From: a virus | DNA: 64,000 nt | Virus genome (UHGV): UHGV-0275551 | Direction: 5' to 3' (one strand) | In this document: piece by piece, positions 13,586 to 40,166 of the stretch | Layout: each line of letters begins with the position of its first letter | How positions within the stretch are numbered: the stretch's first letter is position 1 | Program-made: the position numbers and the translations under genes | Notes under the pieces: model-generated | Told to the model about the DNA's origin: nothing | Database searches by the model: none | Seen by the model: the letters and a program-made list of their open reading frames with translations, nothing else

Positions 13586-14128
13586 TTAGAAAAAGACCTT
13601 TAAATCACTCTCTACAATGTTTTCTGTCAGTGTATCCATGATGTCACAAAAAACCTGAATACTGTCGGATTGTTGGATACTTTTAGCAAGTAGCTCCAAT
13701 GTTTCATCAAGATAATTTAAATTTGGGTTATCCAGTGAAGGGAGACAAAAAGGTGAATACATAGCGTTGAACTCTGTTGTATAGACCTTTTTAATCCAAT
13801 TTACATCAAAGTACTCTGTAAAGCTTGCTATATTTGACACGTTATCACAAGAATAATCATCATTTAGCTCATCCTCTGGAATGTCAAGTTCTAAGATAAC
13901 AATATTTTGAGTTTTCATCTGAAAAGCTGCCGTGATAGTGGCATTTCCTAGAGCTTGCTGGATACCTTCCGATGCTATCTCTTCCTCATCATCACCATAG
14001 AGTTTATTTTCTGGGTACACGTAAAAATTGCCGTCCATATCCGAACAATTCCATACACCTGATGGTTTATCACCGTTATTAATCAGGTTGATAAAGTTTT
14101 CTTGAGTAGTACCGTGAAAGCATTTCAT
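13586..14128 (-). CDS. hypothetical protein
   Basis: 180-aa ORF after a type-B cassette. Confidence 0.6.
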   Translation of the reverse strand: MKCFHGTTQENFINLINNGDKPSGVWNCSDMDGNFYVYPENKLYGDDEEEIASEGIQQALGNATITAAFQMKTQNIVILELDIPEDELNDDYSCDNVSNIASFTEYFDVNWIKKVYTTEFNAMYSPFCLPSLDNPNLNYLDETLELLAKSIQQSDSIQVFCDIMDTLTENIVESDLKVFF

Positions 14129-14221
14129 TTTGAATCTCCTAGTTTAAGGATTTAGTGGTAAAGCTCTTTATCTGGGGCTTACTTTATCGAACTATAAGCC
14201 CCTTGTAAAGTACTTTATCAG
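14129..14221 (-). promoter_or_regulatory. type-B promoter cassette
   Basis: TTTACA-N17-TAAAGT; inverted repeat GGGGCTTA/TAAGCCCC; SD. Confidence 0.6.
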
Positions 14222-14419
14222 TTAATTTTTGACAACTTTTAAAACTGCAAGATAACCTAAGCAATAAGAATCACCGAAGAGAGTTCTACCCATGAAAGAA
14301 TCATCTTTGATATCCTTTGCAGTGACTGTTTTTTCTACGCCGTGGGAAAGAACTACATCACCAACTTTAATGTCTTTGATGTGCGTGGTTTCAATGGTTA
14401 AACCGTTGATAATAGCCAT
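14222..14419 (-). CDS. hypothetical protein
   Basis: 65-aa ORF after a type-A cassette. Confidence 0.5.
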   Translation of the reverse strand: MAIINGLTIETTHIKDIKVGDVVLSHGVEKTVTAKDIKDDSFMGRTLFGDSYCLGYLAVLKVVKN

Positions 14420-14520
14420 TTTGAATCTCCTAGTTTAAGGACTTTACTTAGTGGGGAAGGTCATTCCCTCCCCGTTGATGTGTAATTTAATCTATCTAAA
14501 AATCAGTGTCAATAAAATTT
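14420..14520 (-). promoter_or_regulatory. type-A promoter/leader cassette
   Basis: TTGACA-N17-TAAATT; leader hairpin; SD; about 95 nt near-identical to 15284-15372. Confidence 0.65.
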
Positions 14521-14925
14521 TTAGAGTTCTGCATAAATTGCGTCGCAGATGTCACGAAAGTCATGATTTGCCAAATTACGTTGTAACCAAGTGGCAAAGA
14601 AATCAGCGATTGCAAAATTAGCATCATACTCAACAGATAGCCACACTTTCACGGCAAATCTAAACATTTTCAAGTCTAACTCTTTATTCATTACCTTAGA
14701 TTTGCCTAACATGTCGACCATTTCATATTGTGCACCGTCTAGCGTGATACCTGCTGCAACGTCAGCCAATGAGTTTTTTACGTTTTCAACGTCTAAGATA
14801 ACGCTTTGAATCTTTCCGATAATGTTGTGCAATGTTTCATCCGGTGCTGATGATGTAATAACATTGATTCGATTAACGGTTAAACGTGCTTTTAAGATTG
14901 ACAACTCACGATTATTAATAGCCAT
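14521..14925 (-). CDS. hypothetical protein
   Basis: 134-aa ORF after a type-B cassette. Confidence 0.6.
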   Translation of the reverse strand: MAINNRELSILKARLTVNRINVITSSAPDETLHNIIGKIQSVILDVENVKNSLADVAAGITLDGAQYEMVDMLGKSKVMNKELDLKMFRFAVKVWLSVEYDANFAIADFFATWLQRNLANHDFRDICDAIYAEL

Positions 14926-15010
14926 TTTAGAATCTCCAATTTAGGATTGAGTGGTAAAGCTCTTTATCTGGGGCTTACTGTACAGACTTATAAGCCCCCT
15001 GTAAAGTACT
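14926..15010 (-). promoter_or_regulatory. type-B promoter cassette
   Basis: TTTACA-N17-TACAGT; inverted repeat; SD. Confidence 0.6.
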
Positions 15011-15283
15011 TTATACTAAGTGCAATTTTTTACCTTTTACTATAATGTAACTCGATGTGCTATTGCTGCAAACATCCTGATAAATTCTGCGCAAACGTCC
15101 TTCATAGTATACTTTCCAGCTAGTTGGAATCTTTTTGCCGTATCCGGTAGCAGTTTTTTGGAGTCCTGCGAATTGCCAATCTAAGATATGTTGCTCAGCC
15201 TGTAAATCCTCAAAGTGCATCACACCGTCTACATAGTGACGTAGAGTGACATTTAAAGTGAGACCGTTGTTAGTAGTATACAT
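15011..15283 (-). CDS. hypothetical protein
   Basis: 90-aa ORF after a type-A cassette. Confidence 0.55.
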   Translation of the reverse strand: MYTTNNGLTLNVTLRHYVDGVMHFEDLQAEQHILDWQFAGLQKTATGYGKKIPTSWKVYYEGRLRRIYQDVCSNSTSSYIIVKGKKLHLV

Positions 15284-15372
15284 TTTAGAATCTCCTAGTT
15301 TAAGGACTTTATTTAGTAGGGTGGTTATTGCCTCCCCGTTGATGTGTAATTTAATCTATCTAAAAACCAGTG
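15284..15372 (-). promoter_or_regulatory. type-A promoter/leader cassette
   Basis: TTGACA-N17-TAAATT; variant leader hairpin; SD. Confidence 0.65.
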
Positions 15373-15705
15373 TCAACAGTTTTGTTTTCGTTTGCTCAAC
15401 TCTTGAACAATTACAGTATGATAGTCTTTTAAGTCACTAATATTTAAAGCATTTATCAGAGAATTATAATCATCGACTAATTGAAAATCATCTTTGAAAA
15501 TGTCGCTGATTTGATAAGCTCTCGCCCTGAATCTGAAGCTCATTTCTAACCGCTTTAATTGTTCATCGCTCAACCGCTCTAGAAAGCTCATTACAAGGCT
15601 ATTGCTAACCTGTTGTGTGATTGCCTTATTTGCTAGATTATAGGCTTTATATGCCTTATAGAGCGCGAAAATGGCAATGATTGCAGTGATACCAGTCATT
15701 AACAT
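15373..15705 (-). CDS. hypothetical membrane-anchored protein
   Basis: 110-aa ORF, hydrophobic N-terminus, SD AGGAAG; overlaps upstream gene. Confidence 0.55.
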   Translation of the reverse strand: MLMTGITAIIAIFALYKAYKAYNLANKAITQQVSNSLVMSFLERLSDEQLKRLEMSFRFRARAYQISDIFKDDFQLVDDYNSLINALNISDLKDYHTVIVQELSKRKQNC

Positions 15706-15995
15706 GGTGCTTCCTCTTTACGTGACACTTTGCCATTTACAGTTATCTCATAAGAATCTAGTAAATCGCTTTTAGATTTGACAGGACTTTTAAGAGTATC
15801 ATCATAGATATTGACTTGCAATACAGGTTTTTTATACTCCCTGCAACTATTCCATAAGCAAATCACTACACGACGACCTTTTATTTTGCCGTGTAACCAT
15901 TCCATAACATCATGGCTATTTCTTGATGTTTCAATGAAATCAATTTTGTTGAGTAATTTGCTTAGATTTTCACGAACTTTATTTGATAATTTCAT
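15699..15995 (-). CDS. hypothetical protein
   Basis: 98-aa ORF after a type-B cassette. Confidence 0.55.
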   Translation of the reverse strand: MKLSNKVRENLSKLLNKIDFIETSRNSHDVMEWLHGKIKGRRVVICLWNSCREYKKPVLQVNIYDDTLKSPVKSKSDLLDSYEITVNGKVSRKEEAPC

Positions 15996-16083
15996 TTTTG
16001 AATCTCCAGTTTAGGATTGAGTGGTAAAGCTCTTTATCTGGGGCTTAAGATACCAACTTTTAAGCCCCTTGTAAAGTACTTTA
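15996..16083 (-). promoter_or_regulatory. type-B promoter cassette
   Basis: TTTACA-N17-TATCTT; inverted repeat; SD. Confidence 0.55.
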
Positions 16084-16373
16084 TCAGTTAATTTTCAGCT
16101 TTGCATAACCTCTCATTGTACGAATTGGAGATGTTAAGGCTACGCGTCTAATATATGCCTTTTTTGTGTATACATTTGTCTTTCCGATAGTGTTTACACA
16201 TGTAAAAAGATTTATTGGTGAATTTTTTAACTTCAACTGTTTATCAGCCTTCACACCCCATCTTACAGCAGATTGTTTTCCGTTGTCAACCACTTTCCCG
16301 CCTAACTTTTCGCTATGATGCGAGCGTCATCACGAGTTTTTACAGGAATTACAACGTTTTTGATAGTAGCCAT
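16084..16373 (-). pseudogene. small ORF interrupted by an apparent -1 frameshift in a 4-nt homopolymer (possible sequencing error or pseudogene)
   Basis: ATG at 16373 after the cassette SD opens a 23-codon frame ending at TAG 16302-16304; the 69-aa track ORF 16084-16293 is open in the -1 frame back to 16326; one extra A in the run at 16307-16310 would fuse them. Confidence 0.4.
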
Positions 16374-16461
16374 TTTTGAATCTCCAATTTAGGATTTAGT
16401 GGTAAAGCTCTTTATCTGGGGCTTACTTTATCGAACTATAAGCCCCTTGTAAAGTACTTTA
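16374..16461 (-). promoter_or_regulatory. type-B promoter cassette
   Basis: Identical in its core to the 14129-14221 copy. Confidence 0.6.
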
Positions 16462-16842
16462 TCAGTTAATTTTGAAGATTGTTACATAACCATCACTACC
16501 GATGATTTGAGACACTCCAGCTTTTTCTACTTGATAGCCCATATTTTCAAGATGATAAACAGCATCATCGTAACCATATGCGCCACCCTGATAACGTCTC
16601 TTATCGCATCTTATCAGGTTTTTACCACGTCCAGCAAGTGCATGTAAAATGGCTTTTTCGCTTGAAAGAGTACCATCTAGCATTGTCGCCGTGTAATGGT
16701 TGATTTTATTCCCATTGATATCATACTTAAAATTAAACGAGTGAACAACAATAACGTTACCTTTAAAATTCTCATCAAGTGACTTCTCCAGTGCGTTGCG
16801 AAAGTTGTCTTTGTTGATGAATTTAGGTGCACGGTATGCCAT
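16462..16842 (-). CDS. hypothetical protein
   Basis: 126-aa ORF after a type-A cassette. Confidence 0.6.
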   Translation of the reverse strand: MAYRAPKFINKDNFRNALEKSLDENFKGNVIVVHSFNFKYDINGNKINHYTATMLDGTLSSEKAILHALAGRGKNLIRCDKRRYQGGAYGYDDAVYHLENMGYQVEKAGVSQIIGSDGYVTIFKIN

Positions 16843-16960
16843 TTTGAATCTCCAGTTTAGGACTTTATTTAGTGGGGAAGGTCATTACCTCCCCGTTGAT
16901 GCAAATACTAGATAACCCCGTTCAAAGAGTCAAGAAAAATTTTAAAAATATTTTTGGAAA
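16843..16960 (-). promoter_or_regulatory. type-A promoter/leader cassette (first of the cluster)
   Basis: TTGACT-N17-TAGTAT; leader hairpin; SD. Confidence 0.55.
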
Positions 16961-17104: not shown

Positions 17105-17295
17105 AAACCTACCTGCACGATTCTAAAATGATTTTTCTTGCCCGACCTGAGCGGGGTCTGCACGTTTTGAAAATGAAAAAGCTCTTTGGAGATTACCTGC
17201 ACAGTTTGAAAATGAATTTTCTCTTTGGAGTTCAAAATTCTCTCTACAGATTTCTCTACAGAACTCTACCTGCACAATCCTGAAATGAAAAAGCC
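17105..17295. repeat. array of four ~25-bp direct repeats (CCTGCAC-N5-TTTGAAAATGA family) plus duplicated CTCTTTGGAG
   Basis: Copies at about 17109, 17157, 17193 and 17267; lies upstream of the small-gene cluster on the minus strand. Confidence 0.7.
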
Positions 17296-17340
17296 CTCCT
17301 TACCTGAAAAATTTACCAGATAAGGAAGGCTTAGTCTATT
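17283..17340 (-). terminator. rho-independent terminator after the macro-domain gene
   Basis: Minus-strand imperfect hairpin GCCTTCCTTATCTGG / CAGGTAAGGAGGGC followed by CTTTTTCATTTC. Confidence 0.55.
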
Positions 17341-17361: not shown

Positions 17362-18147
17362 TTAGTTCTTTGCGTCTAAGAAGGTAACTTCTGGTGAAGA
17401 GAAGACCGTCTCGATATCCTCATCAGTTCTTGCATAAATATATGTATCTGCATCACTGCCAAATGTTACGGCTATCCTGTGATTGCTCTTCGACAGGTGG
17501 GTAACTAGAGCGTTACTTAGAGACATCTTCTCAACCGGAGGGTTACTTTGATGTATCTTACCTTTTCTTCGTCTGAAGAGGGTAACTGTATCATCTTTGA
17601 ACGTTACTACACCTGCAAAGTATTCTGGTTCACAGTAGTTATTCCAACCTGAGCGTAACTTGTGGTACATCTCTCCTTCGTAGACATACAGATAAACATC
17701 TACACTCTTCATCACCTGATTAATGATAACTGTGACGGCTTGAGGGTCAAGTCCACCGATACCTGCACCAATCATAGGTAAACCAACCTTCTTCAACTGA
17801 TTAACTTCACAGTATCTGTTAAGCTGTTTCAAAGATGACTCTAAAGCACTGTATCGGGCATCTTTACCAGTCTTAAGCTGAGTGTAAAGGTTAGCTATAC
17901 GACCTTGTTTTAAACGTGCTACAGAGAAATTACCCAGTAAATTTTCACAAGGTTTGTGTCCTATACCACCTGCATATAGATAAACTTCTGTATCGGTCTC
18001 ATATGCTTTTGGGTAAAGTTTAGAAATCTTGTCAGCGATACCTGCACCCATTAAGTTCATACAGTTGCAACCGTGACCGATGATGTCAAACTTACCTTTA
18101 TCAAATGCGGCAAAGATATCACCATTAATTATTTTTACAATACCCAT
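17362..18147 (-). CDS. macro-domain protein (TARG1/DarG-like fold) with C-terminal extension
   Basis: N-terminus GDIF...GHGCNCMNLMGAGIA and later LPMIGAGIGGLDP match macro-domain signature positions; SD GGGAGAG. Confidence 0.55.
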   Translation of the reverse strand: MGIVKIINGDIFAAFDKGKFDIIGHGCNCMNLMGAGIADKISKLYPKAYETDTEVYLYAGGIGHKPCENLLGNFSVARLKQGRIANLYTQLKTGKDARYSALESSLKQLNRYCEVNQLKKVGLPMIGAGIGGLDPQAVTVIINQVMKSVDVYLYVYEGEMYHKLRSGWNNYCEPEYFAGVVTFKDDTVTLFRRRKGKIHQSNPPVEKMSLSNALVTHLSKSNHRIAVTFGSDADTYIYARTDEDIETVFSSPEVTFLDAKN

Positions 18148-18348
18148 TTAACATCTCTCCCAAGATTCTTTGTCTTCTGAAGGTTTTACACGTTGTCCTT
18201 CGTGGTCTACCCAGATGCACCCACAACCTTCACAGATTACTGGCATTGCATAACCAGCTTTAAAGTCATCTTCAGTGATAAGACCTTTTAAGTCACCTGT
18301 ATCACGTCCGAACATTTCAATAGAACAGTCTTTGCAGAAGTCAGCCAT
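18148..18348 (-). CDS. small Cys-rich zinc-ribbon-like protein
   Basis: 66 aa with CxxC...CxxC. Confidence 0.5.
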   Translation of the reverse strand: MADFCKDCSIEMFGRDTGDLKGLITEDDFKAGYAMPVICEGCGCIWVDHEGQRVKPSEDKESWERC

Positions 18349-18891: not shown

Positions 18892-19164
18892 TTACTTCCT
18901 CGTTTTGAGAACTGCTAAGATTTCTTTAGAGTCTGGTAAGAACCATGTGTAGTGATTCTCTTTGATTTCTGGATGAGTGTCAACCTTTATTTTGCACTCT
19001 TTACCAACATGCTTAAGCTGTGCTGTGATACCTTGCATAAAGATGTGACACATTACATTATCCATAATCGTAGGTAAGAAATCAATCCTCATGTAAGTAT
19101 CTTTCGGTCTCGGTAGAAGTAAGTAACCTTCTGTGTAGAAAGTTTCATCATTACTTTGTGTCAT
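18892..19164 (-). CDS. hypothetical protein
   Basis: 90-aa ORF. Confidence 0.5.
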   Translation of the reverse strand: MTQSNDETFYTEGYLLLPRPKDTYMRIDFLPTIMDNVMCHIFMQGITAQLKHVGKECKIKVDTHPEIKENHYTWFLPDSKEILAVLKTRK

Positions 19165-19430
19165 TACTGCTTATTCCCTAATAAAATCATATCAATAAGG
19201 TTATTAGCTTTGATTGTGCACTGGTAAAATCCATCACGATAGAACTCAAGGGCTGCTGCCACATCGCTGCCAGTATTACCTTTGACAGTGAATCTTGACT
19301 CTTCTTGAGTGTACTTGTCACCCTCACTTACTTGGGAGTTTTTGAATGTACTGTTCACTTTGTTCGTTGAACACCCTGACATAATTATCAGTAACACAAA
19401 CATTATAAAACTCTGGCTTAGTTTTTTCAT
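19164..19430 (-). CDS. putative o-spanin (outer-membrane lipoprotein)
   Basis: Signal peptide with lipobox (IIMSGC); starts inside the previous gene in another frame. Confidence 0.5.
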   Translation of the reverse strand: MKKLSQSFIMFVLLIIMSGCSTNKVNSTFKNSQVSEGDKYTQEESRFTVKGNTGSDVAAALEFYRDGFYQCTIKANNLIDMILLGNKQ

Positions 19431-19671
19431 ATGTTAGTACCTCTTTTGTATGCTTATTCTTAGCAAGCACATCTTTCAAATCATTTTTGTAATTGGTGCT
19501 GAGTGTGGCTAAACCTTCCTGATAAGCATCTTTGGCAACACTTATTAGTTTCTCGTTATTTAGCTCAGTTTCAGCAACTTGGTAGTCTCTGTAAGAGTAT
19601 CCTCCCCAGACACCTGTCCCAACTAAGAAAACAATTATGAAAGTAGCTTGACAGAACTCTTTAAATGTCAT
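19324..19671 (-). CDS. putative i-spanin (N-terminal TM, periplasmic helical domain)
   Basis: N-terminal TM segment; overlapped by the lipoprotein ORF in the manner of overlapped spanin pairs. Confidence 0.5.
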   Translation of the reverse strand: MTFKEFCQATFIIVFLVGTGVWGGYSYRDYQVAETELNNEKLISVAKDAYQEGLATLSTNYKNDLKDVLAKNKHTKEVLTYEKTKPEFYNVCVTDNYVRVFNEQSEQYIQKLPSK

Positions 19672-20199: not shown

Positions 20200-20895
20200 T
20201 CAATGTTTAACTAACATGGTTTTAATGTGTGGAAGGATTCTGTTTACCTTCTGAACATTCTTCTCTGTATCTTCTATAAAACATACTATATCAAAGTAAG
20301 GCAGAATGCAAGACTGAATCATCCTCACTTTCAAACTTTCTGCACTTATAGAGTTAGTCCCAAAACCACGCATAAAAAGCATGTAATCATGCTCTATGTA
20401 ATGCCTTAAAAACATCTCAGTAGGTATTCTCTGAGATTCACCTCTTGCTGTCAATAGTCCAATGGCAGCGTGATTAGAAATTGCATCAATAATATTGAAA
20501 ACATACGTTGGTTTTGCACTTACAGAGTCAAGCAAATTGGTGTACTGTGAAAATGACCCATCAATCAGTTCCGTTGAGCAATCTTCGTGATTAAAATTTG
20601 TCAGAACACCATCAATATCTGCTAAGATGAGGTTACCTTTTTCTACAAGGTCTTTATTGACTATGACTAAACTGTCACGTCTTACACCTATAGTTTGTCC
20701 GGTCTCTTTGTCCACAACGTTCACAATTGGTTCTGATGTGTGGAACTCTTCAAGTGAACATACAACTTCTCTTGCAGTATCTTCAAAATCCCTGCACTGT
20801 TCTGGAGTCCATACACAGGAATCAAGACCTAACTCATGAGGATGCAAGTCATAAGCGTGGCACAGGACTTCATCAGACTTTCTTAATTTTTTCAT
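20200..20895 (-). CDS. hypothetical protein with HAD-like phosphatase motif (DIDGV)
   Basis: 231-aa ORF; C-terminal half has ILADIDGVLTNF; function tentative. Confidence 0.35.
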   Translation of the reverse strand: MKKLRKSDEVLCHAYDLHPHELGLDSCVWTPEQCRDFEDTAREVVCSLEEFHTSEPIVNVVDKETGQTIGVRRDSLVIVNKDLVEKGNLILADIDGVLTNFNHEDCSTELIDGSFSQYTNLLDSVSAKPTYVFNIIDAISNHAAIGLLTARGESQRIPTEMFLRHYIEHDYMLFMRGFGTNSISAESLKVRMIQSCILPYFDIVCFIEDTEKNVQKVNRILPHIKTMLVKH

Positions 20896-25652: not shown

Positions 25653-27434
25653 TTAAAGCTGCTTGTCAATATTATTTCGAATATCACCAAGAGTTGTGTA
25701 ACCGTACTGCTCAGAGTCGCTAAAGACTAAACGTAAAGCACAAGCTGGATGTTCAAGTGCATCTGCAAAGCTCTGGAATCCATAGCCATCTACAGCTTTC
25801 AAATTCTCACCATCCCACATAGGTGCTACACCACCAAAGGCAGATTTCTTAACACCACTATCTGTTTTAGGGTCTTTTGCAAGCATAATCTCTTTGCCAC
25901 CAATGCTTGCAAGAGTTGCTTTGACAGCAAATGCAAAGGTGTCACGAGTCATGTACTGGTAAGTGTAAGAGCCTACACCAAACACTACGTTAGAGCTTGC
26001 AAAACCCATTTCATACAGACGCTTCAGGATTTCGTTTGCACGTTCCAACGTGATAGAGTCACCATAGATAAGTCCAATGTGCTCATCCAGTACCTTAAAA
26101 CCTTTAGAGTTGATAGTTCCTCCAAAGATGTTATACAAGGTCTTAATAGCTCCATCAATCTCTGCTACAGGGCGTGTTACAACGTTTGCAGAACCAACCA
26201 TATAAGCGTTCTTCAACATCACTGTATCAGCAACTTCAAAGTCTTCTCTGTCAACAACCATTTCGTAGCCTTCTGACAGTAGCCATCCAGCAATACCATA
26301 GCTGATGTTTTCAAGCTTCATGTTCAGAACAGCATTCAGCATTGTGTCACTGGCTTCCAGATTGCTTAGGTGCTCATAATAAGCCTTTTTAGCACACTCT
26401 AAGTGGATTGCTTTATAACCTGTGACAATGTGTACAGGGTCTCCAGAGTCAGGACGAATTACCAGTTTGCCATCACGTTCCATAATTTCTTTACGGAGTG
26501 CTGGTAAGATTTCTGACACAGTTCTCCAGAAGTTATAAGTGTCTGAAACAACACTTGCAATACCAGTTGGATAAGTTTCTGTTAAGAAGCGACGGAAGGT
26601 TTGCAACTCACCTTTAAAGCGTCTTTCTTCTTCAACCAACTCATTACCACCTTCCCAAGCAATGTTTGCACACATTACAGAGTGTTCAGTGGCTGGTACA
26701 GAACCACCAATATCAGAGACTGGGTAAGACTGTCCGTAGATGCGTTTAGCTGTATATACAGCAGGGAAGCTATCAGTCCCTTTAAAGCTGGTTAAGTGGC
26801 CTACAGCGTTAAATGCGTCATCAGTAAAGCCGGACATACCACGCATAGCAAAGTCATGGCACTGATAAGGTAAATGTAAGTCATTGTCGCAAGTAAGGTC
26901 AGCCCACTTCTTACAGATGCGTTTATAATGCAATGCAATAGTTGCAATGGTACAAGCCTTCCAAATCTCAGCAGAGAAAGCATCTTCCAGATATCCCGCT
27001 ACCCAATGGAAACCTGAAACAGTGTTCTGGAAGACAATCATTGGTACACGCATAGGAACAACTGTACCTTCTTCTACAGCGTATACTTCAACTGGTAGAT
27101 AACCTAAGTCGTGAAGTGCTTCCCAATGCTCTCGACCGATAGCATCTTTACCCAGAACACCATTCATGACTTCTAAGATTTCATCAATGGCTTCTTTTTT
27201 ATCACGTTCAAAGAAAGTGGCGTTCCAGTGGTCTATCAAGTAATCTTTAACGAAACGTTGAATACCAAAAGCTACTACACCATCAATTGCTAAGGGGCTG
27301 TTAAACCACTTATCACTACGTGGTGTCAGGTTCAACATAAGATATTGCGTAGCATCTGGATACTGATATATATGTGATGCCTTGTAAGCATCTGCATTAA
27401 GACCTGCTGGTACTGCGTAAAGTGACTTACTCAT
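25653..27434 (-). CDS. nicotinamide phosphoribosyltransferase family protein (NAMPT-like; possible Namat-type)
   Basis: N-terminal DAYKASHIYQYP (TDSYK-like) and C-terminal GDSIT...VVFGVGSYTYQY match NAMPT family motifs. Confidence 0.8.
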   Translation of the reverse strand: MSKSLYAVPAGLNADAYKASHIYQYPDATQYLMLNLTPRSDKWFNSPLAIDGVVAFGIQRFVKDYLIDHWNATFFERDKKEAIDEILEVMNGVLGKDAIGREHWEALHDLGYLPVEVYAVEEGTVVPMRVPMIVFQNTVSGFHWVAGYLEDAFSAEIWKACTIATIALHYKRICKKWADLTCDNDLHLPYQCHDFAMRGMSGFTDDAFNAVGHLTSFKGTDSFPAVYTAKRIYGQSYPVSDIGGSVPATEHSVMCANIAWEGGNELVEEERRFKGELQTFRRFLTETYPTGIASVVSDTYNFWRTVSEILPALRKEIMERDGKLVIRPDSGDPVHIVTGYKAIHLECAKKAYYEHLSNLEASDTMLNAVLNMKLENISYGIAGWLLSEGYEMVVDREDFEVADTVMLKNAYMVGSANVVTRPVAEIDGAIKTLYNIFGGTINSKGFKVLDEHIGLIYGDSITLERANEILKRLYEMGFASSNVVFGVGSYTYQYMTRDTFAFAVKATLASIGGKEIMLAKDPKTDSGVKKSAFGGVAPMWDGENLKAVDGYGFQSFADALEHPACALRLVFSDSEQYGYTTLGDIRNNIDKQL

Positions 27435-27450
27435 ATTTTATCTCTCTCTC

Positions 27451-27942
27451 TTAGTTATGTCTTGCAAACTCACCATGAAGTTCTATTCGCTTTTTAATTA
27501 CAGCTTCTTTTGCTTCTTCTACCGTTTTAAATCTTCCACAAAAGTATTCTTTATGGTAAAGCATGACTCTTGCTTTGTAAAGACCTGTTTGTTTACAAAA
27601 ACTTACACCCTTCACACCAGTTTTATTATTCTTGTATATACCCCTATTCCTCTGATTTTGTGACTTTGTGCTAAGTCTTAAATTATCCAACTTATTATTA
27701 GATTTATCAAGGTCTATGTGGTCTATCTCATATCCACTTGGTATCTCACCTCCAGACATAATCCATGCAATATTATGTGCATAGTACCTCTTCTTATTTA
27801 TCTGGACTTGGATATAACCCTTCTTAGACCTTGTGCCAGCCACATTACCAGCAATAGCGGTACTGCAAAGGGTTACTCTCCAAATTAATAAACCTGTATC
27901 TGGTTCATATATTAGGTATCTTTCAAAATAACCCTTATTCAT
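27451..27942 (-). CDS. HNH homing endonuclease with C-terminal AP2-like DNA-binding domain
   Basis: EIDHIDLDKSNNKLDNLRL...QNQRN HNH motif; C-terminal GV..RV...GK..FKTVEEA; paralog at 50517-51029. Confidence 0.7.
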   Translation of the reverse strand: MNKGYFERYLIYEPDTGLLIWRVTLCSTAIAGNVAGTRSKKGYIQVQINKKRYYAHNIAWIMSGGEIPSGYEIDHIDLDKSNNKLDNLRLSTKSQNQRNRGIYKNNKTGVKGVSFCKQTGLYKARVMLYHKEYFCGRFKTVEEAKEAVIKKRIELHGEFARHN

Positions 27943-27950
27943 ACTGTTAC

Positions 27951-28832
27951 CTAATCAATGGTTGCTACAGTAACTTGACCATAATGTGTTAAGCCACGGT
28001 CTTTAGCTTCCCCTAAAGAGTTTGTAGTGTAGATGTGGTCAATGCCATTGTCAAGAAGGTTTTCAACATCTTTAGAGAAGATACCGTGTGTTACATAGAG
28101 TTCCACACGTTTTGCACCTGCTTCACGAAGATGTTTAGCTGCTTCTATGAAGGTTCGACCACCATCACAGATATCATCCAGAATCATGACGGTTTTATCT
28201 GTCAAATCAACATCATCAAGGATTCGCATACCAGTAATTTCACCAGTCTTAAGGTTGCGTACTTTAGACATTGTGATATATGGTTTATCCACCTCTTTAG
28301 CAGTCTCTGCAATCTTCTTAGCAGCACCTGCATCTGGGGCTACTAAGTAATCAATCAGTGGGTCATTTGCATAGTGGACTGCAATTTCCTTTTGAGGAAT
28401 ACTCTGGAAGCAGTTAAACAGGTTATCTGGTACATAGCTGTGAGGGTCAACTGCACAGACTGCACCAAATCTCATTGCATTTACCTGTTTAGCAAAAACC
28501 TTTAAAGCTGCTGCGTCGCCTTTAAACATGTGACGGTCATAACGTGCATTTGGTAAGTAGTAAAAGATGACAGTCTTTAAAGCATAATCATGAGGAATTA
28601 AATCATCAATTGCTTCTTTAGCAAGTGCCACAGCAAACAATGTATCCTTATCATAACCTTTTACAATCATAATCACATTGTTGATGGATGATGCTGCATA
28701 AGCAGTGAAATCAACAAACTCTGGCGAAAAGTGTCCACCAATCTCACCAGAAGGAAATTGGATGATGTTAAACTCTTCTTCATGAGTTCCTTTAGTTGGT
28801 GAATGAACTGTAACACGGATAGATGTTTTCAT
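27951..28832 (-). CDS. ribose-phosphate pyrophosphokinase family protein (PRS-like; possible Adps-type)
   Basis: PRPP-binding loop VMILDDICDGGRTF; track start is TTG 28847, ATG 28832 has SD GAGAGAGA. Confidence 0.8.
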   Translation of the reverse strand: MKTSIRVTVHSPTKGTHEEEFNIIQFPSGEIGGHFSPEFVDFTAYAASSINNVIMIVKGYDKDTLFAVALAKEAIDDLIPHDYALKTVIFYYLPNARYDRHMFKGDAAALKVFAKQVNAMRFGAVCAVDPHSYVPDNLFNCFQSIPQKEIAVHYANDPLIDYLVAPDAGAAKKIAETAKEVDKPYITMSKVRNLKTGEITGMRILDDVDLTDKTVMILDDICDGGRTFIEAAKHLREAGAKRVELYVTHGIFSKDVENLLDNGIDHIYTTNSLGEAKDRGLTHYGQVTVATID

Positions 28833-28843
28833 AGTTTTCTCTC

Positions 28844-29122
28844 TCAATCAAAAGTTACGTTTGTTACTGCCATTGCAGATTTGCATTTTGCAGGGTCTAC
28901 AACGTGATAAAGTACACTACAGTTACCTGTACTGTCTGGTACAGGTTTAACCCATTGTTGCTTGACAGTTGGTTCGCCTAAGTCTTTGTAAGAACCATCT
29001 GTAAAATTGTTTACCATCTCAAGTGCAATTGGTTCTGGAACATGACCACGTATCATGTACATCTCACAACCATTACCACCTTCACTCACTAATGGTAAAA
29101 TTTCCCACTTCTCTTTAGCCAT
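28844..29122 (-). CDS. hypothetical protein
   Basis: 92-aa ORF. Confidence 0.5.
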   Translation of the reverse strand: MAKEKWEILPLVSEGGNGCEMYMIRGHVPEPIALEMVNNFTDGSYKDLGEPTVKQQWVKPVPDSTGNCSVLYHVVDPAKCKSAMAVTNVTFD

Positions 29123-39114: not shown

Positions 39115-39430
39115 GGTATTTCTCCAAGTTTCTTTTTAGATATAACCAACCGTAGTCAGTCCTTTCTACACCCATAAAAAGTGGAGCCATCACAACTTTA
39201 CCAAAAGTATTCCTGTGTTGGCAGATTTCAAAAGAATACTCTTTCTCAATGTCAATCCCGTATTTGTACAGGACTGCTTTTAAAACTTGTTCGTTATCCA
39301 GAAGTGTATCTGGAGTCTCACCATACTTTTCAAGTAACGGGTCATTCATAAACACCGTCATAGAAATATTGTAGTTTGAGAAGTGGCTCTTCTGAGCCAC
39401 ACCCTCTTTATTAATGTTCTGTGAATCCAT
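39107..39430 (-). CDS. hypothetical protein
   Basis: Track start TTG 39439; ATG at 39430. Confidence 0.5.
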   Translation of the reverse strand: MDSQNINKEGVAQKSHFSNYNISMTVFMNDPLLEKYGETPDTLLDNEQVLKAVLYKYGIDIEKEYSFEICQHRNTFGKVVMAPLFMGVERTDYGWLYLKRNLEKYRV

Positions 39431-40166
39431 TATAACCAACCCCTTTTAACCAGCACTTCAGGTTATTAGCATCATAATTCAGTTTCGGGTATGAGGTTAC
39501 ATGGAACTGCTCACCATCATAGTAGACAATATCTGCAATCCATAGTCCATTCTCTTTACAGAAGTCTTTATCTGCTTTAGAGGTAATTGGATTAACTTCT
39601 ACAAAACCATCTACACCCAAATCCTTTAAGCTACATACAATACCTTTGCAGATAACGCATGTCTCAGATACTACCACAAAAAGTTCTTGGCTTTCAAGCT
39701 CTACAATGTATTCACCAAGCTGTACTTTAGGGAGATTTGATTGCTTCATAATCTTCCCATCGGCTGCACGGACAATCGCATACCACTCTTTACCATCAAC
39801 CACTGACATTCGAATAATACACTCTTGACCAGTACGCTTTTCAATGTCTGCAAGACGTTTTAAAGCTTCTTCATAGTCATCTGTGTACTTCAGGTCATTA
39901 TTATGGCAAACAGCTTCCATAGCACCGTTGTGGTCATGTTGTGACAGGTAAATCAAACCGTCAAGAACATATTGCAAATCTGCCTGAGCATCCAATGTCT
40001 CAATGGGGTCTTTCTCTTCAATTGCTTTTACAAGCTCTTTTGCTTCTTCAAGCATACACAGAGATTGAGGTTTTAAAGATTCCCAATACTCATTACTGTA
40101 AGGTTGCTTTTGAGTGTTTCCACAACGAAGGTTCCAGTTTTTTACTGATTCTCTTGAGTTAAACAT
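39411..40166 (-). CDS. hypothetical protein; N-terminal region resembles MazG-type NTP pyrophosphohydrolase
   Basis: 251-aa ORF; LEEAKELVKAIEEKD...ADLQYVLDGL pattern; function tentative. Confidence 0.45.
   Translation of the reverse strand: MFNSRESVKNWNLRCGNTQKQPYSNEYWESLKPQSLCMLEEAKELVKAIEEKDPIETLDAQADLQYVLDGLIYLSQHDHNGAMEAVCHNNDLKYTDDYEEALKRLADIEKRTGQECIIRMSVVDGKEWYAIVRAADGKIMKQSNLPKVQLGEYIVELESQELFVVVSETCVICKGIVCSLKDLGVDGFVEVNPITSKADKDFCKENGLWIADIVYYDGEQFHVTSYPKLNYDANNLKCWLKGVGYNGFTEH

What the first reader, a model, noticed from the sequence alone, without database searches (positions are those of the whole stretch)
17362..18147. Phage macro-domain protein of the TARG1/DarG type: candidate ADP-ribosylation reversal
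The N-terminal ~155 aa carry macro-domain hallmarks in the arrangement seen in TARG1/DarG-type ADP-ribosyl hydrolases, followed by an unrecognised ~100-aa domain. A phage-borne macro domain in an early-type region could reverse DarT-style DNA ADP-ribosylation or other ADP-ribose-based immunity, and could supply ADP-ribose to the NAD module about 8 kb away. The fold assignment is from recalled motifs, not a search.
Basis: partly seen in the sequence, partly recalled or inferred. Interest (0 to 1): 0.75.

Follow-up and report, generated by a model that had tools for sequence, protein, structure and literature searches.

The report
Felix O1-type phage macrodomain ADP-ribose hydrolase
This gene of a Felix O1-like phage encodes a genuine ADP-ribose-removing (macro) enzyme fused to a small domain of unknown fold; it belongs to a phage enzyme family recently shown to defeat two ADP-ribose/NAD-based bacterial defences, so it is a plausible but untested anti-defence gene rather than a new kind of system.

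Summary
Window 17362-18147 (minus strand) is a 261-aa ORF. Residues 1-157 are a confident macro domain, closest to TARG1, DarG, SCO6735 and Poa1p. Residues 158-261 are a conserved domain with no detectable relative outside this fusion.

The window is a wV8/Felix O1-type Felixounavirus, and GenBank already annotates the gene as 'macro domain protein' or 'phosphatase' in about 260 phage records.

'TARG1/DarG type' is right for the fold class but wrong for the chemistry. The catalytic Lys of TARG1 and DarG is an invariant Gln here (Q90), as in SCO6735, T4 Tk.4 and phage Adpp. The TARG1 Asp is a Gly.

Two characterised phage relatives suggest two roles:
- T4 Tk.4/AdfM (35% identical) counters DarTG2.
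- Adpp of Vibrio phage Gary (27%) is an ADPR-1''-phosphate phosphatase that feeds NARP1 and counters aRES.

The NAD module 8 kb away is NARP1, which was discovered in Bas63, a phage of this genus. Homology alone cannot choose between the two roles. Motifs and loop lengths lean towards Tk.4.

Not previously described, as far as I could find:
- the orphan C-terminal domain, which is under purifying selection but changes protein sequence 5-8 times faster than the macro part;
- a gene-precise swap between two alleles only 41% identical within the genus.

Verdict: new variant of a known kind, moderate interest.

The parts
17362..18147 (-). Complete ORF, 261 aa plus stop codon: macro domain followed by an orphan C-terminal domain
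   Evidence: PHROG 335 'phosphatase' E=4e-113 across both domains; about 258 phage records carry the full-length two-domain form
17677..18147 (-). Macro domain, residues 1-157. Family-invariant residues: H25, G26, N28, C29 (HGCNC); M33, G36, A38 (phosphate loop 1); N86, L87, T89, Q90 (NLYTQ); P124, G127, G129 (loop 2)
   Evidence: Pfam; AF2; Foldseek; invariant columns of alignment A1; profile against the PDB
17878..17880 (-). Codon of Gln90, at the position of the catalytic Lys of TARG1 (K84) and, by the paper's equivalence, DarG (K80)
   Evidence: HMMER alignments to TARG1. SCO6735 Gln85 occupies the same position and Q85A abolishes thymidine-ADPr hydrolysis (PMC9411070). T4 Tk.4 and Gary Adpp also have Gln here
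18064..18066 (-). Codon of Asn28, invariant. It aligns with PhiKZ AdfM N23, whose mutation reduces removal of ADP-ribose from DNA
17365..17676 (-). C-terminal domain, residues 158-261: one helix, a six-stranded beta structure, then a short helix. No relative was detected outside these macro fusions
17291..17332 (-). Terminator-like hairpin of 17 pairs followed by a T-run, 30 nt after the stop codon. It ends the transcription unit
   Evidence: the wV8 record annotates a Rho-independent terminator at the matching position
18148..18348 (-). 66-aa CxxC...CxxC protein that abuts the macro start codon. It belongs to the same unit; any functional link is unknown
   Evidence: phrog_2210. It is identical in Si3. 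A different zinc-ribbon-like protein occupies the position in L006 and an unrelated protein in L007
27951..28847 (-). Adps, the first enzyme of NARP1 (a Prs-like ADPR pyrophosphokinase); a possible downstream user of free ADPR
   Evidence: Pfam Pribosyltran/Pribosyl_synth; NARP1 was defined in Bas63, a Felixounavirus; the region is conserved in 256 records. Orthology to the Bas63 genes is inferred, not aligned directly
25653..27434 (-). Namat, the second enzyme of NARP1 (a NAMPT-like nicotinamide ADPR transferase)
   Evidence: Pfam NAPRTase and NAMPT_N

Best explanation
The gene encodes a glutamine-type macrodomain hydrolase of the phage Tk.4/Adpp family. It binds ADP-ribose and cleaves whatever is attached to the 1'' carbon of the distal ribose, releasing free ADP-ribose. 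The phage uses it to undo a product of host immunity.

The leading specific role, at about 0.4, is removal of ADP-ribose from thymidines that a DarT2-type toxin places on single-stranded phage DNA. That would keep replication going. It is the role of T4 Tk.4/AdfM, the closest characterised homologue.

The second role, at about 0.3 and not exclusive of the first, is dephosphorylation of ADPR-1''-phosphate made by RES-type NAD+ phosphorylases (aRES). The phage's own NARP1 (Adps and Namat, 8 kb away) could then rebuild NAD+ from the ADPR.

The fused C-terminal domain packs against the macro domain. It probably tunes substrate or target recognition; this step is inference only.

Shown here: the fold, its class, the conserved active-site residues, the homology to Tk.4 and Adpp, the presence of NARP1, and selection on both domains. 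Inferred: the enzymatic activity, the substrate, the expression timing, and the role of the C-terminal domain.
For: - Macro fold and class.
- Invariant H25, N28, Q90 and both glycine loops across 27 homologues.
- N28 aligns with the catalytic Asn of PhiKZ AdfM, which removes ADP-ribose from DarT2-modified DNA in vitro.
- Gln at the Lys position is compatible with thymidine-ADPr hydrolysis (SCO6735 Q85) and with ADPR-1P phosphatase activity (Gary Adpp 'YGQ').
- T4 Tk.4 is 35% identical (E=3e-24) and is the single T4 gene needed on DarTG2 hosts.
- Ours shares the HGCNC / NLYTQ / IGAGIG motifs with Tk.4. Both lack the 3-7-residue insertion after the Gln that all six sampled NARP1-adjacent macro lineages carry.
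- A neighbour-joining tree places ours outside the Adpp clade.
- Against the DarG models, ours scores higher (47.5 bits) than Tk.4 (30.3) or Adpp (34.9).
- For the NARP1 link: Adps and Namat are in the window. NARP1 was defined in a phage of this genus. The PAK_P1 NARP1-adjacent macro scores 75 bits against ours, compared with 82 for Tk.4. The macro gene and Namat stay in one syntenic block even in relatives whose macro domain is only about 40% identical.
- Arms-race signature: two discrete alleles 41% identical, swapped precisely at the ORF in flanks that are 91-94% identical.
- Both domains are under purifying selection.
Against: - No experiment exists on this protein or on any Felix O1-like orthologue.
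- The evidence for Tk.4 is genetic only and comes from a preprint.
- Tk.4 and Adpp are as similar to each other (35%, E=2e-23) as either is to this protein. Homology therefore cannot fix the substrate.
- The gene is not inside the NARP1 operon, unlike Adpp. It is about 17 genes away in its own terminator-bounded unit.
- Tk.4, Adpp and PhiKZ AdfM are all single-domain proteins. The extra 104 residues have no assigned role.
- Net charge does not separate DNA-acting from small-molecule-acting members.
- The tree has no bootstrap support and rests on about 150 positions.
Confidence: 0.6

Rival explanations
1. It is chiefly an Adpp-type ADPR-1''-phosphate phosphatase and forms a dispersed 'NARP1-AP' pathway. 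Host aRES cleaves NAD+ to nicotinamide and ADPR-1P, which Adps cannot use. This enzyme removes the phosphate, and NARP1 then rebuilds NAD+.
For: - The Adpp precedent and its biochemistry.
- 15% of NARP1 phages carry such a macro within two genes of the operon.
- NARP1 is present in the window and conserved across the genus.
- The macro gene and Namat stay in one block in distant relatives.
- aRES was cloned from E. coli, Klebsiella and Enterobacter, which are relevant hosts.
- Poa1p-like HxCNC motif; Poa1p profile E=4e-15.
- One family member is fused to a cyclic-phosphate-processing receiver domain.
- ADPR-PP, the NARP1 intermediate, decays to ADPR cyclic phosphate, so a recycling phosphatase would be useful.
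Against: - It is not adjacent to NARP1 and lies in a separate unit between terminator-like hairpins.
- It lacks the post-Gln insertion shared by all sampled NARP1-adjacent macros and falls outside their clade.
- Identity to the only biochemically tested Adpp is just 27% (52 bits).
- T4 keeps a closer homologue without having NARP1.
Confidence: 0.3
2. It acts as a DarG-like two-pronged antitoxin mimic. The macro domain hydrolyses the modification, while the fast-evolving C-terminal domain binds and blocks the host toxin (DarT2 or another ADP-ribosyltransferase or NADase). The two discrete alleles would match different toxin variants.
For: - The architecture is analogous to DarG2: a macro domain plus a second domain that binds the toxin.
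- SCO6735, DarG and TARG1 catalytic-dead mutants all inhibit DarT by interaction.
- Phage inhibitors that bind DarT (AdfB) or aRES (aRad1) exist.
- The C-terminal domain diverges 2-3 times faster than the macro domain, with dN 5-8 times higher.
- Its charge is not conserved (pI 4.6-9.5), which argues against a generic nucleic-acid-binding role.
- Gene-precise allele replacement within a species.
Against: - No sequence or fold similarity to the DarG C-terminal domain or to aRad1.
- dN/dS stays below 1, so positive selection was not demonstrated.
- No complex prediction was possible with these tools.
- The confident full-length model (pTM 0.89), compared with the weaker isolated domain (pLDDT 80.6), suggests the domain is an integral part of the enzyme rather than a free binding module.
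Confidence: 0.15
3. It reverses another ADP-ribose conjugate or processes another small molecule. Candidates are protein or RNA ADP-ribosylation by host or phage transferases, O-acetyl-ADP-ribose, or Appr-1''-p from RNA repair. It might also merely bind ADP-ribose derivatives.
For: - Enzymes of this class are promiscuous. The SCO6735 paper records activity on both protein and DNA substrates for SCO6735; from my own knowledge, TARG1 also acts on O-acyl-ADPR, protein Glu-ADPr and DNA thymidine-ADPr.
- Database names include 'O-acetyl-ADP-ribose deacetylase' and 'high-affinity ADP-ribose binding module'.
- A PNK-like HAD phosphatase gene lies 2 kb upstream in an arrangement like the T4 pseT region.
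- RNA ADP-ribosylation systems with macro-domain erasers are known (titles).
Against: - No ADP-ribosyltransferase, NADAR, sirtuin or Tpt1/KptA domain was found among the 20 ORFs scanned in the window (17 of the 41 that are 150 aa or longer, plus three smaller ones), or in the annotation of relatives.
- The invariant catalytic-site residues argue against a pure binder.
- The database names are transferred annotations, not tests.
Confidence: 0.12

Closest known systems
T4 Tk.4 = AdfM(T4), anti-DarT factor macrodomain (HIDEN-SEQ preprint, 10.1101/2025.11.20.689424)
   Same: Closest characterised homologue: 35% identity over 161 aligned positions (gaps included), E=3e-24. Same HGCNC, NLYTQ and IGAGIG motifs and the same short loop after the Gln. 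Both are genes of lytic enterobacterial myoviruses that sit among small genes of unknown function.
   Different: Tk.4 is 155 aa and is a macro domain only; this protein has 104 additional residues. T4 has no NARP1. The Tk.4 function rests on transposon-sequencing data and a knockout, with no biochemistry yet.
Adpp, the ADPR-1''-phosphate phosphatase of NARP1-AP (Vibrio phage Gary gp137; preprint 10.64898/2026.01.28.702374)
   Same: Same phage macro family with Gln at the catalytic-Lys position. It is Poa1p-like. Both phages encode NARP1.
   Different: Only 27% identity (52 bits). Adpp lies between Adps and Namat, whereas this gene is 8 kb away. Adpp-clade proteins carry HQ(C/A)NC, YGQY and an insertion after the Gln. 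Adpp is single-domain.
SCO6735 of Streptomyces coelicolor (PDB 5E3B)
   Same: ALC1-like/TARG1-class macro domain with Gln in place of the catalytic Lys. It still cleaves thymidine-linked ADP-ribose on DNA, and Q85A is inactive. Profile E=2.3e-15.
   Different: A cellular, single-domain protein. Sequence similarity is low (phmmer E=0.5 with the single sequence).
DarG (DarG2) antitoxin and human TARG1/OARD1
   Same: Best structural matches: TARG1 TM 0.81-0.85, DarG 0.78-0.79. Same macro class. DarG also has a two-domain architecture with an N-terminal macro domain.
   Different: The catalytic Lys is replaced by Gln, and the TARG1 Asp by Gly. The C-terminal domain is unrelated to that of DarG. 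There is no adjacent darT. The NCBIfam DarG score is 47.5 bits against a cut-off of 250.
PhiKZ gp104 = AdfM of chimalliviruses (Cell Rep 2026, PMC13309987)
   Same: A phage macro domain that removes DarT2-added ADP-ribose from DNA. Its catalytic Asn (N23) aligns with N28 here.
   Different: A different lineage: it is DarG-like with the Lys-containing 'PTK' motif (the motif was read from my own translation of the published coding sequence). Similarity to this protein is only 23% identity, E=1.5e-4. It is imported into the phage nucleus.
Yeast Poa1p (PDB 6LFQ)
   Same: Shares the H-x-C-N-C motif: Poa1p residues H23 and N26 correspond to H25 and N28 here. Profile E=4e-15, Foldseek TM 0.75. It is the source of the 'phosphatase' annotation.
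   Different: A eukaryotic enzyme of tRNA-splicing by-product metabolism. It appears to have Ser rather than Gln after the Thr position.

Membership tests
Macro domain superfamily (Pfam PF01661) | Sequence match above the curated threshold, and the alpha/beta macro fold with two glycine-rich ADP-ribose-binding loops | tested here: met
   32.3 bits against a gathering score of 22; AF2 pLDDT 92; Foldseek E=1e-10 to solved macro domains; MGAGIA and IGAGIGG loops are conserved
ALC1-like / TARG1-DarG-SCO6735-Poa1p class of macro domains | Closer in sequence and structure to TARG1, DarG, SCO6735 and Poa1p than to MacroD-type, PARG-type or viral nsP3 macros | tested here: met
   Profile E-values of 6e-17 to 2e-13 for the class members, against about 2e-3 for alphavirus macros. 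TARG1 and DarG take 8 of the top 9 Foldseek ranks, with a viral (VEEV) macro at rank 5
TARG1 / OARD1 | Catalytic Lys84-Asp125 dyad | tested here: not met
   K84 aligns with Q90, which is invariant in 27 homologues. D125 aligns with G131
DarG (DarG2) antitoxin | Catalytic lysine (Taq/Mtb K80) in the macro domain | tested here: not met
   Gln90 occupies the position equivalent to TARG1 K84.
DarG (DarG2) antitoxin | C-terminal DarT-binding domain, and a full-length match to the equivalog model | tested here: not met
DarG (DarG2) antitoxin | Encoded next to a darT toxin gene | tested here: not met
   The neighbours are small phage genes, a PNK-like gene and spanins. No ADP-ribosyltransferase domain was found and none is annotated in relatives
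Phage Gln-type macro hydrolases (Tk.4/AdfM-T4 and Adpp family) | Homology to Tk.4 and Adpp, with the H-x-(C/A)-N-C, N-x-Y-(T/G)-Q and I-G-(A/C)-G motifs | tested here: met
   E=3e-24 to Tk.4; E=5e-14 to Gary Adpp and 8e-23 to the PAK_P1 macro; motif alignment
AdfM (functional class: anti-DarTG2 factor) | Removes DarT2-added ADP-ribose from thymidine in ssDNA, and is required for plating on DarTG2 hosts | not testable with these tools
   Needs biochemistry and phage genetics. Only homology to Tk.4 (genetic evidence) and class precedent are available
Adpp / NARP1-AP | Macro gene within the NARP1 operon (within two genes of Adps or Namat) | tested here: not met
   The macro gene is at 17362-18147 and NARP1 at 25653-28847, about 7.5 kb and roughly 17 genes apart. 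The macro gene sits in a separate unit between terminator-like hairpins. No Escherichia or Salmonella phage appears in the authors' Table S1
Adpp / NARP1-AP | ADPR-1''-phosphate phosphatase activity that enables NARP1 on aRES hosts | not testable with these tools
   NARP1 is present in the same genome; the activity is untested

The most novel reading that the evidence does not exclude
The protein is a phage-built, two-pronged anti-defence factor. One Gln-type macro hydrolase works on both DarT2-modified DNA and ADPR-1''-phosphate, feeding the phage's own NARP1. The orphan, fast-evolving C-terminal domain binds and blocks the cognate host enzyme. The two discrete alleles circulating within one phage species would then be matched to different host toxin variants. 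This would be a convergent analogue of DarG with an unrelated second domain.
Probability: 0.12. Interest if true: 0.7.

Novelty: new variant of a known kind. Interest (0 to 1): 0.42.

Why it matters
Felix O1-like phages are widely used for Salmonella and E. coli typing, biocontrol and therapy. Their host range depends in part on which defences they can neutralise.

If the enzyme reverses DarT2 DNA ADP-ribosylation, anti-DarTG2 macrodomains would extend from T-even and nucleus-forming phages to a third large phage group. It would also add a natural test of the Gln-based, lysine-free mechanism.

If it is an ADPR-1P phosphatase, NARP1-AP can be genetically dispersed. The published figure of 15% of NARP1 phages, counted within two genes of the operon, would then underestimate how many phages can beat aRES.

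The orphan C-terminal domain and the two sharply different alleles within one species offer a tractable way to ask how an anti-defence enzyme acquires target specificity.

None of this is a new kind of system; it is a new architecture within a family that is being characterised right now.

Tried and rejected
C-terminal domain:
2. Foldseek against BFVD found only the SUSP2 orthologue.
3. The afdb50 library was not available.
4. Pfam, NCBIfam and PADLOC gave nothing.
5. HMMER over 1.84 billion representatives gave 12 hits. Those I take as real are macro fusions plus one stand-alone 114-aa protein and a 54-aa fragment. The others I dismissed after Pfam scans of five of them showed repeat-rich or compositionally biased proteins, such as PQQ propellers, a retrotransposon polyprotein and adhesin repeats.
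6. No similarity to aRad1, and there is no aRad1 homologue in the window.
7. No similarity to the DarG C-terminal domain.

Attempts to separate the DNA-acting role from the small-molecule role:
- Net charge and pI are uninformative. PhiKZ AdfM, which acts on DNA, is acidic.
- C-terminal pI ranges from 4.6 to 9.5.

Search for a conserved partner gene: the abutting 66-aa zinc-ribbon protein is not conserved in distant relatives.

Search for other ADP-ribose genes in the window (ART, NADAR, Tpt1, sirtuin): none among the 20 ORFs scanned.

Literature:
- No paper was found on a Felix O1-type macro domain.
- LeRoux 2022 is not held.
- I could not retrieve the Bas63 record by guessing accessions. Orthology of the window's Adps and Namat to Bas63 genes 79-80 is therefore inferred from genus membership and conservation across the genus.
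- The residues mutated in Adpp could not be read from the supplement.

Rejected readings:
- A DarG or TARG1 orthologue (catalytic residues and model score not met).
- A degenerate C-terminal tail (dN/dS 0.16-0.33, a confident fold, conserved across Ounavirinae).
Full report
**What is there.** The window is a Felix O1-type myovirus (genus Felixounavirus).
- The 2-kb stretch around the finding is 97.3% identical to phage wV8 and to E. coli O157 typing phages. 243 phage records match it.
- The protein is 100% identical to that of typing phage 1.
- The ORF lies at exactly the stated coordinates, 17362..18147, but on the minus strand. It is 261 aa long.
- It abuts a 66-aa CxxC...CxxC protein gene upstream.
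- A 17-pair terminator-like hairpin follows it at 17332-17291. The wV8 record annotates a Rho-independent terminator at the matching position.
- A second hairpin at 19712-19695 bounds the unit upstream. The macro gene is therefore the last gene of a roughly 2.3-kb block. That block starts with Rz/Rz1-like spanin genes and lies just downstream of a PNK-like HAD phosphatase gene and rIIB/rIIA. The layout recalls the T4 pseT region; that comparison rests on my own knowledge of T4.
- 'Early-type region' is thus plausible, but it is inferred and not shown.

**The macro domain is real.**
- Pfam Macro matches residues 25-141 above the curated threshold.
- PHROG 335 ('phosphatase') matches the whole protein at 4e-113.
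- An AlphaFold2 model built on 27 homologues has pLDDT 92 and pTM 0.89.
- Foldseek against the PDB puts TARG1 first (E=1.2e-10, TM on target 0.81-0.85). Next, apart from one viral macro at rank 5, come the DarG macro domains of Thermus aquaticus and M. tuberculosis, then Poa1p.
- A profile of the family hits TARG1 (6e-17), Mtb DarG (3e-16), SCO6735 (2e-15) and Poa1p (4e-15). MacroD-type viral macros reach only about 2e-3.

**The chemistry is not that of TARG1 or DarG.**
- The residues invariant across the 27 homologues are H25, G26, N28, C29, M33, G36, A38, P46, G72, N86, L87, T89, Q90, P124, G127 and G129.
- In the HMMER alignments, TARG1 K84 falls on Q90 and TARG1 D125 falls on G131.
- The paper on SCO6735 states that its Gln85 occupies the position of TARG1 K84 and DarG K80. 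The enzyme still cleaves thymidine-linked ADP-ribose from DNA, and Q85A abolishes activity (PMC9411070).
- N28 aligns with N23 of PhiKZ AdfM, whose mutation lowers removal of ADP-ribose from DNA.
- The H-x-C-N-C motif is shared with yeast Poa1p, where H23 and S30 were chosen for mutant structures.
- Against NCBI's DarG equivalog model the protein scores 47.5 bits (cut-off 250), covering only the macro half of the model. PADLOC's DarG model behaves the same way.
- It is therefore a member of the class but not a DarG or TARG1 orthologue.

**Two characterised phage relatives.**
1. T4 Tk.4 is 35% identical (E=3e-24).
   - A 2025 preprint found tk.4 to be the single T4 gene depleted on a DarTG2 host.
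   - It confirmed this with a clean knockout and named the gene adfM.
2. A 2026 preprint from the Sorek laboratory showed a second role.
   - RES-domain defence proteins (aRES) split NAD+ into nicotinamide and ADPR-1''-phosphate, which the phage NAD+ reconstitution pathway NARP1 cannot use.
   - 15% of NARP1 phages carry a Poa1p-like macro protein, Adpp, within two genes of the operon.
   - Purified Adpp from Vibrio phage Gary converts ADPR-1P to ADPR.

I took the Adpp sequences from that paper's Table S1 and compared them with this protein:

| Comparison | Identity | Bits | E-value |
|---|---|---|---|
| Ours vs Gary Adpp | 27% | 52 | 5e-14 |
| Ours vs NARP1-adjacent macro of PAK_P1 | 30% | 75 | 8e-23 |
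| Ours vs T4 Tk.4 | 34% | 82 | 2e-25 |
| Tk.4 vs Gary Adpp | 35% | 77 | 2e-23 |

All of these proteins carry Gln at the Lys position. They form one star-like family, so homology alone cannot assign the substrate. PhiKZ AdfM, shown in vitro to remove ADP-ribose from DarT2-modified DNA, belongs to a different, Lys-containing DarG-like lineage.

**Which way it leans.**
- The protein shares HGCNC, NLYTQ and IGAGIG with Tk.4.
- All six NARP1-adjacent lineages I sampled have a 3-7-residue insertion after the Gln, and most have HQ(C/A)NC and YGQY. Ours and Tk.4 lack the insertion.
- A neighbour-joining tree puts ours outside the Adpp clade. The tree has no bootstrap, so this is weak evidence.
- On the other side, the 'NAD module 8 kb away' is a Prs-like gene (27951-28847) plus a NAMPT-like gene (25653-27434).
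- That is the pair in which NARP1 (Adps and Namat) was discovered, in Bas63, a Felixounavirus. The region is conserved in 256 records, including Felix O1 itself.
- In metagenomic relatives whose macro domain is only about 40% identical, the order Namat, rIIA, rIIB, SLT-like, PNK-like, macro is retained.
- My allocation is about 0.4 for DarT2 reversal and about 0.3 for ADPR-1P dephosphorylation feeding NARP1. The two are not exclusive, because enzymes of this class are promiscuous at the 1'' position. The remainder goes to other ADP-ribose conjugates.

**The C-terminal domain.**
- Residues 158-261 fold confidently in the full-length model as a helix, six strands and a short helix.
- Modelled alone, the domain is less confident (pLDDT 80.6), and weakest in the first 20 residues. 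This suggests it packs on the macro domain. I could not inspect coordinates, so that is an inference.
- A profile search of 1.84 billion representatives found only macro fusions, one stand-alone 114-aa protein and a 54-aa fragment. The remaining hits were repeat-rich or compositionally biased proteins.
- The two-domain form is confined to Ounavirinae (Felixounavirus, Mooglevirus, SUSP2-like phages) and a few metagenomic relatives.
- The domain diverges 2-3 times faster than the macro domain: 82% against 51% identity, and 53% against 23%.
- Within the major allele, Nei-Gojobori dN/dS is 0.02-0.13 for the macro part and 0.16-0.33 for the C-terminal part. Both are under purifying selection, so the tail is a functional domain.
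- Its charge is not conserved (pI 4.6-9.5), which argues against a generic nucleic-acid-binding or DNA-mimic role.
- It does not resemble the DarT-binding domain of DarG or aRad1. Its function is unknown.
- My best guess is tuning of substrate or target recognition. A riskier version is binding of the host toxin, as DarG does with an unrelated domain.

**Allelic replacement.**
- Salmonella phage Si3 belongs to the same genus, and its flanks are 91-94% identical to the window. At the same locus it carries a two-domain macro gene whose protein is only 41% identical.
- The DNA alignment shows near-identity through the upstream gene and the first 15 nt of the ORF. Divergence then runs through the whole ORF, and similarity resumes in the 3' half of the terminator.
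- Among phage records, 13 carry the Si3-type allele at 95% identity or more. The other 252 are below 60%, and none is in between.
- Phage FG1m, classified in the species 'Felixounavirus Si3', carries the major allele. VpaE1_ev035, which by its name is a variant of VpaE1, carries the Si3-type allele, whereas VpaE1 itself carries the major one.
- Gene-precise exchange of two old alleles within a species is typical of loci involved in host-phage conflict. It is not proof of that.

**Comparison with what is known, and novelty.**
- The macro-domain identity is already in GenBank for hundreds of genomes. The names used include 'macro domain protein', 'phosphatase', 'O-acetyl-ADP-ribose deacetylase' and 'Poa1p_like family'.
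- A large survey had already noted that about 41% of myoviruses encode macro domains (PMC9503650).
- Anti-DarTG2 macrodomains and the NARP1-feeding macro phosphatase were both published in 2025-2026.
- What is not described, as far as the held literature shows, is this two-domain architecture, the dispersed macro-plus-NARP1 arrangement in Felixounavirus, and the discrete alleles.
- I rate it a new variant of a known kind, of moderate interest. If the C-terminal domain proves inert, it reduces to a new member of a known kind.

Noticed in passing
window 27451-27942 (minus strand): An HNH homing-endonuclease gene (HNH_3 plus an AP2-like domain) sits between the two NARP1 genes, Adps and Namat. 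It is present in many relatives but absent from wV8, typing phage 8, SP22 and JLBYU32, where the match splits into two pieces covering 84% of the query. In NARP1-AP phages this is the position where the Adpp macro gene sits.
   Followed up: partly
window ~14123-14230, 14414-14512, 14916-15015, 15283-15378, 15982-16095, 16360-16473, 16835-16900: A family of roughly 95-bp intergenic repeats (80-96% identical to one another and to their Si3 counterparts) separates each of the small minus-strand genes downstream of the macro gene. They probably carry promoter and/or terminator signals.
   Followed up: no
window 17130-17300 (minus strand): Four local copies of a motif of the form TTTTCATTTTCAAA..GTGCAG lie in the 520-bp gap after the macro terminator. 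Two are exact matches at 17158-17177 and 17197-17216; the chance expectation is 0.03 matches per window. A TTGACT-17-TAGTAT promoter-like site follows at 16933-16905. Their function is unknown.
   Followed up: partly
window 19164-19671 and 20200-20895 (minus strand): Rz-like and Rz1-like spanin genes (the second overlaps the first and has a lipoprotein signal) lie next to a PNK-like HAD phosphatase gene (phrog_3970 'polynucleotide kinase'). The arrangement recalls T4 pseT/pseT.2/pseT.3. The PNK-like protein has no Pfam hit above threshold.
   Followed up: partly
P0026 (metagenomic, 339 aa): One member of the same macro family is fused to a cREC_REC 'cyclic-phosphate processing receiver' domain (PF20274). 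This hints that some members act on phosphorylated small ADP-ribose derivatives.
   Followed up: no
window 18148-18348 (minus strand); L006 9810-10001: A 66-aa CxxC...CxxC protein abuts the macro start codon. A distant relative has a different 63-aa zinc-ribbon-like protein in the same position, overlapping the macro start. A third relative has an unrelated 103-aa protein there.
   Followed up: partly
window 39411-40166 (minus strand): A 251-aa protein has a PRA-PH / MazG-like nucleotide pyrophosphohydrolase domain (Pfam E=1e-5). It is another nucleotide-metabolism gene in the same leftward block.
   Followed up: no
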